Of a stretch of 64,000 nucleotides of DNA, positions 63,758-63,987 are shown in pieces. Source of the DNA: an uncultured Bacilli bacterium (GTDB lineage: Bacteria; Bacillota_I; Bacilli_A; RF39; UBA660); assembly GCA_934162665.1 (NCBI GenBank), contig CAKPJN010000001.1:52834-116833 (forward strand), in the 5' to 3' direction. Both the position numbers and the translations under genes were made by a program. Below the pieces are notes generated by a model, which searched no databases, was not told the origin of the DNA, and saw nothing but the letters and a program-made list of their open reading frames with translations. How positions within the stretch are numbered: the stretch's first letter is position 1; every line of letters begins with the position of its first letter.

Positions 63758-63769
63758 AAACAAATGTTT
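63758..63769. promoter_or_regulatory. candidate LexA (Cheo-like) box upstream of lexA
   Basis: Palindrome AAACAAATGTTT, comparable to GAAC-N4-GTTC, about 50 nt upstream of the lexA start. Confidence 0.35.
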
Positions 63770-63779
63770 CAAAATCATA

Positions 63780-63808
63780 TTGACACGAACAACTGTATGA
63801 TATATACT
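63780..63808 (+). promoter_or_regulatory. promoter of the divergent small gene, with an embedded Cheo-like box
   Basis: TTGACA, 17-nt spacer, TATACT; the spacer contains CGAACAACTGTATG (5' half CGAAC matches the Cheo box CGAACnnnnGTTCG). Confidence 0.4.
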
Positions 63809-63836
63809 TAAAATGTAAATGAAAGGAGCGATAGTT

Positions 63837-63987
63837 ATGAAATTAAAAAAGAATGTTAAGAAAGGTTTATTTGTATTTACTATTTATTTAATTGCAGCTG
63901 TTTTTGTTTTTGCTGCTACTGATCGAGTAGAAAAATTGGAAGAAAGCTATAAGGAGAATAATATTGCGTTAAATTTTAATAAGTAGT
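63837..63987 (+). CDS. small membrane protein (49 aa) divergent from lexA; candidate SOS-regulated cell-division inhibitor analogue
   Basis: RBS AAAGGAG 9 nt before ATG; single TM (GLFVFTIYLIAAVFVFAA); position analogous to yneA/sosA. Confidence 0.4.

What the first reader, a model, noticed from the sequence alone, without database searches (positions are those of the whole stretch)
63758..63987. lexA with a divergent 49-aa membrane protein behind an SOS-box-like promoter: possible SOS cell-division inhibitor
Upstream of lexA lie a Cheo-like palindrome (AAACAAATGTTT) and a TTGACA-17-TATACT promoter whose spacer contains CGAACAACTGTATG. That promoter drives a 49-aa single-TM protein (MKLKKNVKKGLFVFTIYLIAAVFVFAATDRVEKLEESYKENNIALNFNK) transcribed away from lexA. 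The arrangement mirrors yneA/sosA-type SOS-induced division inhibitors in Firmicutes, but this protein is shorter and has no LysM domain.
Basis: partly seen in the sequence, partly recalled or inferred. Interest (0 to 1): 0.5.

Follow-up and report, generated by a model that had tools for sequence, protein, structure and literature searches.

The report
SOS-controlled small membrane protein beside lexA
Next to the DNA-damage repressor gene lexA, this uncultured gut bacterium carries a conserved 49-residue membrane protein whose promoter contains a LexA binding site; it is most likely a new, unstudied counterpart of the small proteins that pause cell division after DNA damage in Bacillus and Staphylococcus.

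Summary
lexA is at 63091-63708 (-). The spacer of that promoter holds CGAACAACTGTATG. AAACAAATGTTT overlaps the -35 hexamer of lexA's own promoter.

Within this window neither box is rarer than chance. The support comes from 80 related genomes, all uncultured gut Bacilli. In 73 of them the small ORF and the Cheo-type box in its promoter spacer occur together; the other 7 have neither. Of 28 near-consensus boxes in 497 kb of loci, 27 sit in that slot. The 28th belongs to a copy of the same promoter displaced by an insertion sequence.

The ORF is a real gene: dN/dS is 0.07-0.41, the ribosome-binding site is conserved, and Tyr17, Arg30 and Leu34 are invariant or nearly so. It is predicted to be a single-pass N-in/C-out helix with a conserved juxtamembrane (D/N/E)R(I/V)ExL(E/D) motif. 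It matches no Pfam, NCBIfam or PHROG family, has no LysM domain, and does not hit the YneA model.

polA follows 29-64 nt downstream with its own promoter.

Verdict: LexA control is well supported. Division inhibition, in the manner of SosA or YneA, is inferred only from position and architecture. It is a new member of a known kind and of moderate interest.

The parts
63091..63708 (-). lexA coding sequence (205 aa + stop). It has the Ala-Gly cleavage site (VTAGTP), the catalytic Ser (GESM) and the catalytic Lys (ATVKTF).
   Evidence: TIGR00498 at 219.6 bits. Pfam LexA_DNA_bind plus Peptidase_S24. Full-length alignment to the solved LexA structures 3K2Z and 1JHH with these motifs conserved.
63731..63759 (-). 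lexA promoter: -35 TTGACA (63759-63754), 17-nt spacer, TG-extended -10 TAAACT (63736-63731).
   Evidence: Promoter scan, 10 of 12 with TG. Both hexamers are conserved in the alignment of 80 loci.
63757..63770 (.). Box 1, CAAACAAATGTTTC (core AAACAAATGTTT, 63758-63769). Putative LexA autoregulatory operator overlapping the lexA -35.
   Evidence: Core identical or nearly so in most of the 80 loci; the L057-L079 clade carries CAAACAAATCTTCG or CAAACAAAAATTCG instead. It is 11 of 12 identical to the C. difficile recA operator GAACAAATGTTT, which binds LexA by SPR (PMC4234289). Not above chance in this window alone.
63780..63808 (+). Promoter of the small gene: -35 TTGACA (63780-63785), 17-nt spacer, -10 TATACT (63803-63808).
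   Evidence: 11 of 12 match, the best in the region. TTGACA and TATAMT are conserved in all loci that carry the small ORF.
63786..63799 (.). Box 2, CGAACAACTGTATG. Cheo-type LexA operator filling the -35/-10 spacer.
   Evidence: A box with at most 3 mismatches to CGAACN4GTTCG (27 loci with at most 1) occupies this slot in every locus that has the small ORF, and is absent from the 7 loci that lack it. 27 of 28 hits with at most 1 mismatch in 497 kb of loci fall here. Not above chance in this window alone.
63822..63828 (+). Ribosome-binding site AAAGGAG, 8 nt upstream of the ATG.
   Evidence: Read directly. GGAG-type site at the same spacing in all 73 orthologous loci.
63837..63986 (+). Small gene: 49 aa + stop, MKLKKNVKKGLFVFTIYLIAAVFVFAATDRVEKLEESYKENNIALNFNK. 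Cationic N-terminus (residues 1-9), hydrophobic helix (10-28), conserved juxtamembrane DRVEKLE (29-35), short tail.
   Evidence: ORF list. Orthologues in 73 of 80 loci. Alignment A1 shows Y17 invariant and R30 and L34 at 90% or more. dN/dS 0.07-0.41. Hydropathy and charge. AF2 single helix over residues 5-47, pLDDT 81.7.
63987..64000 (+). Start of the short spacer that, in related genomes, leads into polA's own extended -10 promoter and polA. Cut off by the window end.
   Evidence: Wherever polA's start was found just beyond the small ORF, the gap is 29-75 nt (29-64 nt in all but one) and carries a TG-extended -10 followed by an AGGTGAT ribosome-binding site and an 860-880-aa polA; L059 and L069 have longer gaps, and in 17 loci the start motif was not found or the flank was too short.

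Best explanation
This is a LexA-repressed (SOS) module consisting of an operator-bearing promoter and a roughly 50-aa single-pass membrane protein. It occupies the same position, divergent from lexA, as yneA in Bacillus and sosA in Staphylococcus.

Proposed mechanism:
1. In undamaged cells a LexA dimer sits on box 2, between the -35 and -10 hexamers, and excludes RNA polymerase. Box 1 on the lexA -35 gives autoregulation.
2. DNA damage leads to RecA-stimulated self-cleavage of LexA and both promoters fire.
3. The small protein inserts N-in/C-out.
4. Its transmembrane helix (invariant Tyr17, conserved Gly10 and Ile16) and the helical juxtamembrane motif (D/N/E)R(I/V)ExL(E/D) bind a membrane partner. 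The most likely partner is the septal peptidoglycan synthase (FtsW with the class B PBP). This delays division until repair is complete.
5. Transcription from the same promoter runs on into polA, which also has its own constitutive promoter.

Shown here: the gene is real and conserved; the operator and the gene co-occur; the architecture is as described.

Inferred: LexA binding, damage induction, topology, the partner protein, division inhibition, and read-through into polA.
For: - LexA is canonical and has the residues needed for self-cleavage.
- Box 2 lies in the spacer of a near-consensus promoter. It is conserved there in 73 of 73 related loci that have the ORF and is missing in 7 of 7 that lack it.
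- 27 of 28 near-consensus Cheo boxes in 497 kb of loci occupy that slot. The 28th belongs to the same module in L012, displaced by an IS110-like insertion.
- In every clade at least one half-site matches consensus: CGAAC on the left in the window's clade, GTTCG on the right in the L057-L079 clade.
- Box 1 is 11 of 12 identical to a C. difficile operator shown to bind LexA (PMC4234289).
- The ORF is under purifying selection, with dN/dS 0.07-0.41 in independent close pairs. Its ribosome-binding site is conserved.
- The protein is only 21-47% identical across species whose LexA is 76-88% identical, yet it keeps its length, Y17, R30, L34 and E/D35.
- It has one 19-residue hydrophobic segment, and the N-terminus is net positive in 73 of 73 members. 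AF2 gives one continuous helix.
- The organism has a wall and a division-cluster synthase: mraZ-rsmH followed by a class B PBP with a weak PASTA-region match, plus a LysM hydrolase.
- All characterised Gram-positive SOS division inhibitors are small single-pass membrane proteins encoded next to lexA with an extracellular C-terminus. SosA likewise lacks LysM and has a conserved membrane-proximal segment (PMC6851548). YneA binds FtsW TM7 through its TM helix, and AF3 places SosA's extended helix over FtsW (PMC13396833).
Against: - There is no experimental or expression data, and the organism is uncultured.
- No sequence similarity to YneA was detected, and SosA could not be compared, so the functional assignment rests on analogy.
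- The extracellular part is only about 21 residues, much shorter than in SosA or YneA, whose extracellular parts are required for activity.
- FtsW was not seen; only 64 kb of the genome is available.
- LexA's motif in this lineage could not be calibrated on recA or uvr genes.
- The window's box 2 has two mismatches in its right half (GTATG).
- The 7 loci that lack both the ORF and box 2 form one or two adjacent clades. The co-loss is therefore only 1-2 independent events.
Confidence: 0.5

Rival explanations
1. An SOS-induced membrane-active toxin of the TisB/DinQ type. On this reading the LexA-controlled small hydrophobic peptide depolarises the membrane and causes growth arrest or persistence, rather than acting on the divisome.
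For: It is a LexA-box promoter driving a roughly 50-aa single-TM peptide. That is the same outline as the E. coli peptides TisB and DinQ (PMC2577331 and PMC3567139, listed).
Against: - There is no conserved antisense promoter: only 6 of 73 loci have a promoter-like site on the opposite strand, and at scattered positions.
- The 5' UTR is only about 20 nt with a consensus ribosome-binding site, unlike the translationally locked type I toxin mRNAs.
- Specific conserved polar residues lie outside the membrane (R30, E32, L34, E/D35). This points to a protein partner rather than bulk membrane damage.
- The gene is a fixed core-genome neighbour of lexA.
Confidence: 0.15
2. An SOS-induced small membrane protein with some other role. 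Examples would be modulating a membrane protease or transporter, or tethering or regulating DNA-repair functions, possibly together with the co-transcribed DNA polymerase I.
For: LexA control and membrane location are supported, but nothing tested here ties the protein to division. It lies directly upstream of polA with no terminator-sized gap.
Against: - polA keeps its own promoter and ribosome-binding site, and it exists without the small gene in 7 species, so the two are not obligatorily coupled.
- Every characterised small membrane protein gene divergent from lexA in Gram-positive bacteria is a division inhibitor (PMC6851548).
Confidence: 0.2
3. A cleaved secretory signal that releases a roughly 20-aa acidic peptide outside the cell, such as an SOS-induced signalling peptide.
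For: The cationic N-region followed by a hydrophobic stretch and then small residues (A, S, T or C at position 28) before the DR motif resembles a signal peptide.
Against: - No position satisfies the -3/-1 rule in more than 16 of 67 members.
- The hydrophobic segment is 19-21 residues long and contains an invariant Tyr and a conserved Gly and Ile, which is atypical for a signal-peptide core.
- AF2 models a continuous helix through the putative cleavage site.
Confidence: 0.05
4. The boxes are not LexA sites. On this reading the conserved sequences are simply promoter elements or the site of another regulator, and the small gene is not part of the SOS response.
For: Within this window the boxes are no more frequent than chance. 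The LexA motif was not calibrated on other SOS genes of this lineage.
Against: - The spacer between -35 and -10 is normally free to vary. Here it holds a CGAAC-N4-GTTCG-like dyad in 73 species, with 27 of 28 near-perfect matches in 497 kb located there.
- The motif equals the established Bacillota LexA operator GAAC-N4-GTTC/T (PMC4234289).
- The site adjoins lexA itself.
Confidence: 0.07

Closest known systems
SosA (Staphylococcus aureus SOS-induced division inhibitor, 77 aa)
   Same: Divergently transcribed from lexA under LexA control. Small, with one N-terminal TM segment (residues 10-30 in SosA, 10-28 here) and a predicted extracellular C-terminus. No LysM domain. The most conserved stretch lies just outside the membrane. 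Fast-evolving: 25-60% identity among staphylococci (PMC6851548) against 21-47% here.
   Different: SosA's activity, its CtpA-dependent turnover and its PBP1/FtsW links are experimental, whereas nothing is tested for this family. Here polA lies directly downstream.
YneA (Bacillus subtilis, Listeria) and ChiZ (Mycobacterium)
   Same: Same position divergent from lexA, with Cheo/LexA boxes in the promoter. Single N-terminal TM helix. In YneA that helix is what binds FtsW TM7 (PMC13396833).
   Different: YneA and ChiZ carry an extracellular LysM domain that is essential for inhibition. This protein has none, and no member hits the YneA model NF010723.
SidA (Caulobacter crescentus, 29 aa) and DivS (Corynebacterium)
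   Same: LexA-controlled, very small, membrane-anchored, LysM-less inhibitors that act on late divisome proteins (PMC6851548; PMC13396833).
   Different: Unrelated lineages and sequences. Whether sidA lies next to lexA was not checked here. The mechanisms may differ: SidA is predicted to bind the other face of FtsW TM7.
TisB and DinQ (E. coli SOS-induced type I toxins)
   Same: A LexA box in front of a small single-TM peptide.
   Different: Those toxins have antisense sRNA antitoxins and long regulated 5' UTRs. Here there is no conserved antisense promoter, and the leader is short with a strong ribosome-binding site.

Membership tests
LexA repressor (TIGR00498) | N-terminal winged-helix LexA DNA-binding domain plus C-terminal S24 self-cleaving peptidase, with an Ala-Gly site and a Ser/Lys dyad. 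| tested here: met
   219.6 bits against a cut-off of 110.95. Pfam PF01726 plus PF00717. The AG, GESM and K motifs align with solved LexA structures.
Bacillota LexA operator (Cheo box, GAAC-N4-GTTC/T) | A dyad matching CGAACN4GTTCG that overlaps core promoter elements of the regulated gene. | tested here: met
   Box 2 (2 mismatches) fills the -35/-10 spacer and box 1 overlaps the lexA -35. The slot is conserved in 73 loci, 27 of them with at most 1 mismatch. The consensus and the GTTT variants come from PMC4234289.
Bacillota LexA operator (Cheo box, GAAC-N4-GTTC/T) | Physical binding by the cognate LexA and derepression after DNA damage. | not testable with these tools
   Needs EMSA or footprinting and expression data.
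YneA family (NF010723 / PRK14125) | Sequence match to the YneA model. | tested here: not met
   No hit for the window protein at E of 1 or below. None of the 67 family members hits NF010723.
YneA family (NF010723 / PRK14125) | An extracellular LysM peptidoglycan-binding domain, which is essential for YneA activity (PMC13396833). | tested here: not met
   No Pfam domain. Only about 21 residues follow the TM helix. All 161 family representatives are 38-84 aa long.
YneA family (NF010723 / PRK14125) | Divergent from lexA, with a LexA box in the promoter and a single N-terminal TM helix. | tested here: met
SosA (Staphylococcus) | Sequence homology to staphylococcal SosA. | not tested
   No SosA sequence or model was reachable with the tools. 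The curated libraries gave no consistent hit.
SosA (Staphylococcus) | A small LysM-less protein divergent from lexA, with a TM segment near residues 10-30, an extracellular C-terminus and a conserved membrane-proximal segment. | tested here: met
   TM at 10-28 and a positively charged N-terminus in 73 of 73 members. Conserved residues 29-35. Description of SosA from PMC6851548. Topology here is predicted, not measured.
SOS-induced division inhibitors (functional class) | Expression blocks septation, and deletion sensitises cells to genotoxic stress. | not testable with these tools
   Requires genetics and microscopy.
Type I toxin-antitoxin (TisB/IstR, DinQ/AgrB) | A cis- or adjacent-encoded antisense sRNA antitoxin. 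| tested here: not met
   Only 6 of 73 loci have a strong promoter-like site on the antisense strand, at non-conserved positions. A trans-encoded sRNA elsewhere in the genome cannot be excluded.
Type I toxin-antitoxin (TisB/IstR, DinQ/AgrB) | A long structured 5' UTR that keeps the primary transcript untranslated. | tested here: not met
   The -10 ends at 63808 and the ATG is at 63837. The leader is about 20 nt and contains a consensus AAAGGAG.

The most novel reading that the evidence does not exclude
The family may be the smallest Gram-positive SOS checkpoint effector: about 50 aa and LysM-less, consisting of a bare TM helix plus a seven-residue juxtamembrane motif that is enough to switch off the FtsW-bPBP septal synthase. 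On this reading it evolved independently of YneA and SosA in the reduced-genome gut Bacilli, and a distant relative may have been borrowed by a prophage early operon (P0053 in L081).

Alternatively, and more novel still, it may not be a division inhibitor at all. It could be an antitoxin-less SOS membrane effector with a new target.
Probability: 0.3. Interest if true: 0.55.

Novelty: new member of a known kind. Interest (0 to 1): 0.4.

Why it matters
Small membrane proteins that halt division after DNA damage are known from only a handful of cultured species, and they share no sequence similarity. As a result they are invisible to homology-based annotation. This family has at least 161 representatives at 50% identity, all called hypothetical or not called at all.

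The work shows that the rule [quoted passage not shown] extends to a large uncultured gut lineage related to the Mollicutes.

If the function is confirmed, a 49-residue inhibitor with three near-invariant residues would be a compact natural probe of the FtsW/PBP2B synthase. It would also be a marker for which of these reduced-genome lineages still use a wall-based divisome. It would further indicate that DNA polymerase I is wired into the SOS response in this lineage.

Tried and rejected
- Statistical significance of the boxes within the window alone. Rejected: hit counts equal chance.
- Membership of any curated family. Pfam and NCBIfam were scanned with the window protein; NCBIfam and PHROGs were scanned with all 67 members. 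Only scattered sub-threshold TM-type hits appeared, and none to YneA.
- Fusion to larger domains such as LysM elsewhere in the family. Rejected: an exhaustive profile search found only 38-84-aa proteins. The longer ones are over-extended gene calls that translate the promoter region.
- A leader peptide or uORF for polA. Rejected: polA has its own conserved extended -10 promoter and ribosome-binding site, and the peptide's amino-acid sequence is under selection.
- A type I toxin with an antisense RNA. No conserved antisense promoter was found.
- A cleavable signal peptide. There is no conserved -3/-1 site.
- The multi-LysM protein at 32661-33779 exceeds the YneA model's cut-off. It is a 372-aa multi-LysM wall hydrolase, not a YneA.
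- A fold search was not run, because the model is a single helix.
- Calibrating the LexA motif on recA or uvr genes of the same lineage.
- Testing whether the 7 module-less genomes also lack peptidoglycan genes. Not possible: only about 6.6 kb per genome was held.

Full report
**What is in the sequence**

The last kilobase of the window holds a canonical lexA at 63091-63708 on the minus strand. It scores 219.6 bits on TIGR00498 and carries LexA_DNA_bind plus Peptidase_S24. It aligns end to end with solved LexA structures, with the Ala-Gly cleavage site, the GESM serine and the catalytic lysine in place.

The 128-nt intergenic region contains two back-to-back promoters:
- On the minus strand, for lexA: TTGACA (63759-63754), 17 nt, TG-extended TAAACT (63736-63731).
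- On the plus strand: TTGACA (63780-63785), 17 nt, TATACT (63803-63808). This is 11 of 12 matches, the best site in the region.

AAACAAATGTTT (63758-63769, box 1) overlaps the lexA -35. CGAACAACTGTATG (63786-63799, box 2) fills the spacer of the plus-strand promoter. A consensus ribosome-binding site, AAAGGAG (63822-63828), lies 8 nt before the ATG at 63837.

**Chance**

Taken alone, the two boxes mean little. CGAACN4GTTCG with up to 2 mismatches occurs twice in the window against 2.8 expected. AAACAAATGTTT with up to 1 mismatch occurs twice against 3.2 expected. Whether they matter has to be decided by comparison with other genomes.

**Comparative evidence**

A scan of one genome per species with the LexA protein returned 80 loci with LexA 76-88% identical. 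All are metagenome-assembled genomes from gut and rumen, labelled Bacilli, Tenericutes or Mollicutes, "Mycoplasma sp. CAG:877" or Candidatus Onthousia. The last is Bacilli incertae sedis in NCBI taxonomy. The window has 26.5% G+C.

In 72 loci a 38-58-aa ORF starts 124-145 nt from the lexA ATG and runs divergently (194 nt in L080), with the same GGAG-type ribosome-binding site. In a 73rd locus (L012), a 442-aa IS110-like transposase gene has been inserted between lexA and an otherwise intact copy of the region: box 1, promoter, box 2, small ORF, polA. Seven loci have neither the ORF nor box 2 (L026, L027, L048, L049, L050, L060, L067). In those, polA follows lexA directly.

The alignment of the intergenic regions shows two features:
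- The sequence TGTCAAACAAATGTTT, which is the lexA -35 plus box 1, is nearly invariant.
- TTGACA is followed immediately by a CGAAC-N4-GTTCG-like 14-mer and then TATAMT.

Many species carry a box 2 with a single mismatch, for example CGAACAATTGTTTG, AGAACAATTGTTCG and CGAACAATTATTCG. The window's variant, CGAACAAnTGTATG, is shared by about 20 species.

In the L057-L079 clade the degenerate half-site switches sides (TAAAC-N4-GTTCG), so one half-site always matches consensus.

Across all 497 kb of fetched loci there are 28 matches with at most 1 mismatch. Of these, 27 lie in this 50-nt slot and the 28th is the displaced L012 copy.

A promoter spacer has no reason to be conserved unless something binds it. 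The motif is the established operator of Bacillota LexA, GAAC-N4-GTTC, with GTTT variants in low-GC clostridia. The C. difficile recA operator GAACAAATGTTT, which binds LexA in SPR experiments, differs from box 1 by one base (PMC4234289). I therefore regard LexA control of both promoters as well supported, though not demonstrated.

One caveat applies to the co-loss argument. The seven module-less genomes form one or two neighbouring clades in a LexA tree. The joint loss of operator and ORF therefore represents one or two events, not seven.

**The small ORF is a gene**

- Close, independent pairs of orthologues give dN/dS of 0.07-0.41. Examples are L038/L044 at 0.09, L010/L020 at 0.11, L072/L073 at 0.13, L015/L021 at 0.20, L047/L054 at 0.24, L070/L078 at 0.30 and L009/L028 at 0.41.
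- The protein diverges quickly, at 21-47% identity to the window's copy.
- It nevertheless keeps its length and a fixed pattern: K4, K8 and G10, then a 19-21-residue hydrophobic stretch containing I16 and an invariant Y17, then (D/N/E)29, R30 (64 of 67), (I/V)31, E32, L34 (65 of 67) and (E/D)35. A short tail follows, with alternating hydrophobic residues, usually ending in K or R.
- The N-terminus is net positive in 73 of 73 members. By the positive-inside rule this predicts an N-in/C-out topology. This is an inference.
- AlphaFold2 with the family alignment gives one continuous helix over residues 5-47. Mean pLDDT is 81.7, above 90 across the membrane part and about 57 in the last ten residues.

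**Family membership**

The window protein has no Pfam or NCBIfam hit. Scanning all 67 members individually against NCBIfam and PHROGs gives only scattered sub-threshold transmembrane-type hits, and none to the YneA model NF010723.

A word-indexed profile search found 53 relatives. Those that carry any name are called "hypothetical protein". An exhaustive HMM search of 1.84 billion representatives found 161 with E of 0.001 or below, all 38-84 aa long. The longer ones are gene calls extended upstream into the promoter, so that they "translate" the operator, for example ...CQTNVL.... The family is never fused to LysM or to any other domain.

**Context**

Wherever polA's start was located just beyond the small ORF, a full-length polA (860-880 aa) begins 29-75 nt after the small ORF's stop, and 29-64 nt in all but one locus. 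L059 and L069 have longer gaps, and in 17 loci the start motif was not found or the flank was too short. The gap carries a conserved TG-extended -10 (TRTGnTATAMT) and the ribosome-binding site AGGTGAT. The seven species without the small gene have a similar TG-extended -10 ahead of polA and no box 2. The LexA-controlled promoter therefore belongs to the small gene, not to polA. With no space for a terminator, SOS-driven transcription probably continues into polA, but this is an inference. The window ends 14 nt after the ORF, so polA is out of view.

The organism is not wall-less. The window carries mraZ (21619-22086), rsmH (22070-23014), a class B PBP (23342-25501) with a weak match to a PASTA-kinase model, a multi-LysM wall hydrolase (32661-33779, minus strand) and a SpoIID-like protein. 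Related uncultured orders (RF39, RFN20, ML615J-28) are reported to mix walled and wall-less lineages (PMC10868615). I could not assign the GTDB order here.

**Mechanism**

The best-supported reading is an SOS module. LexA on box 2 blocks RNA polymerase, and LexA on box 1 autoregulates lexA. Damage-induced LexA self-cleavage releases both promoters. The small protein then inserts into the membrane and acts through its TM helix and juxtamembrane motif.

What it acts on is inferred by analogy:
- SosA also lacks LysM and has its most conserved stretch just outside the membrane (PMC6851548).
- YneA's TM helix binds FtsW TM7, and AlphaFold 3 places SosA's extended helix over FtsW's catalytic cavity (PMC13396833).

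The present protein, a TM helix continuing into a conserved charged helical segment, fits that picture in miniature. I put about 0.9 on "real gene", about 0.85 on "LexA-regulated" and about 0.5 on "division inhibitor".

**Rivals**

- A TisB/DinQ-like SOS toxin (0.15). This is disfavoured by the absence of a conserved antisense promoter (6 of 73 loci, at scattered positions), by the short unstructured leader with a strong ribosome-binding site, and by conserved extracytoplasmic polar residues.
- Another membrane role, possibly linked to polA (0.2). This cannot be excluded.
- A cleaved signal peptide releasing a 20-aa peptide (0.05). This is disfavoured by the lack of a conserved -3/-1 site (at most 16 of 67) and by the invariant residues in the hydrophobic core.
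- The boxes are not LexA sites (0.07).

**Comparison and novelty**

In function and layout this works like SosA and YneA. It is not a member of the YneA family: both the LysM domain and the model match were tested and not met. Homology to SosA could not be tested.

Because the known proteins of this class are mutually unrelated in sequence, a further unrelated family in a new lineage is best described as a new member of a known kind. It is uncharacterised, largely unannotated, unusually small, and coupled to polA.

A specialist would not be surprised by its existence. The value lies in extending the rule to a large uncultured gut clade, and in offering a very compact candidate ligand of the septal synthase.

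Interest: 0.4.

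Noticed in passing
L001-L080, 29-64 nt downstream of the small ORF (beyond window position 64000): A full-length polA (860-880 aa) follows the small gene. The gap holds polA's own conserved TG-extended -10 promoter and leaves no room for a terminator. DNA polymerase I would therefore receive SOS-driven read-through in addition to constitutive transcription. In the 7 species without the small gene, polA has no Cheo box.
   Followed up: partly
L012 1337-2665 (-): A 442-aa IS110-like transposase gene is inserted between lexA and its native promoter/operator region. 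Box 1, box 2, the small ORF and polA remain intact about 1.8 kb away. In that genome lexA appears to be cut off from its autoregulated promoter.
   Followed up: partly
L081 4001-4138 (+), protein P0053: The weakest profile hit (45 aa, E = 7.5e-3, with the IY and ERxxNLD motifs) lies in a prophage early operon. It comes after divergent HTH_3 repressor-like and Cro-like genes and before ERF, YqaJ and SSB. It could be a phage-borne relative acting as a Kil-like division inhibitor, or it could be a chance match.
   Followed up: no
loci L057-L079 versus the rest (intergenic alignment): The degenerate half-site of box 2 switches sides between clades: CGAAC-N4-GTATG in one and TAAAC-N4-GTTCG in the other. 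Box 1 changes from CAAACAAATGTTT to CAAACAAATCTTCG in the same clade. This suggests co-ordinated drift of both operators, with one consensus half-site always retained.
   Followed up: partly
window 32661-33779 (-): A 372-aa multi-LysM peptidoglycan hydrolase exceeds the NCBIfam cut-off of the YneA model (107.8 bits against 60), purely through its LysM repeats. Automated annotation could mislabel it as a cell division suppressor YneA.
   Followed up: yes
window 21619-25501 (+): This is the start of a dcw-type cluster: mraZ, rsmH, a short gap where ftsL would be expected, and a 719-aa class B PBP with a weak (E = 1e-6) C-terminal match to a PASTA-kinase model. It shows that this reduced-genome, Mollicutes-related bacterium keeps septal peptidoglycan synthesis.
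   Followed up: partly
window 63819-63986, and proteins P0012, P0055, P0062, P0112: Public gene calls for this family often start too far upstream: 55 aa in this organism, and up to 84 aa elsewhere. They read through the ribosome-binding site, or even through the promoter and operator, giving spurious N-termini such as MSNKCF... or ...CQTNVL....
   Followed up: yes
window 57488-57657 (+): A T-box leader (97 bits) lies upstream of the 460-aa ORF at 57696-59078, which is followed by a 439-aa ORF. From their position after relA and the 144-aa ORF I take these to be hisS and aspS, but I did not check them. This looks like ordinary Bacillota organisation.
   Followed up: no
window 61537-62370 (+) and 56292-57467 (+): Two sizeable ORFs (277 aa and 391 aa) near the locus have no hit in the libraries I scanned them against: Pfam only for the 277-aa ORF, NCBIfam and Pfam for the 391-aa ORF. 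They were not examined further.
   Followed up: no
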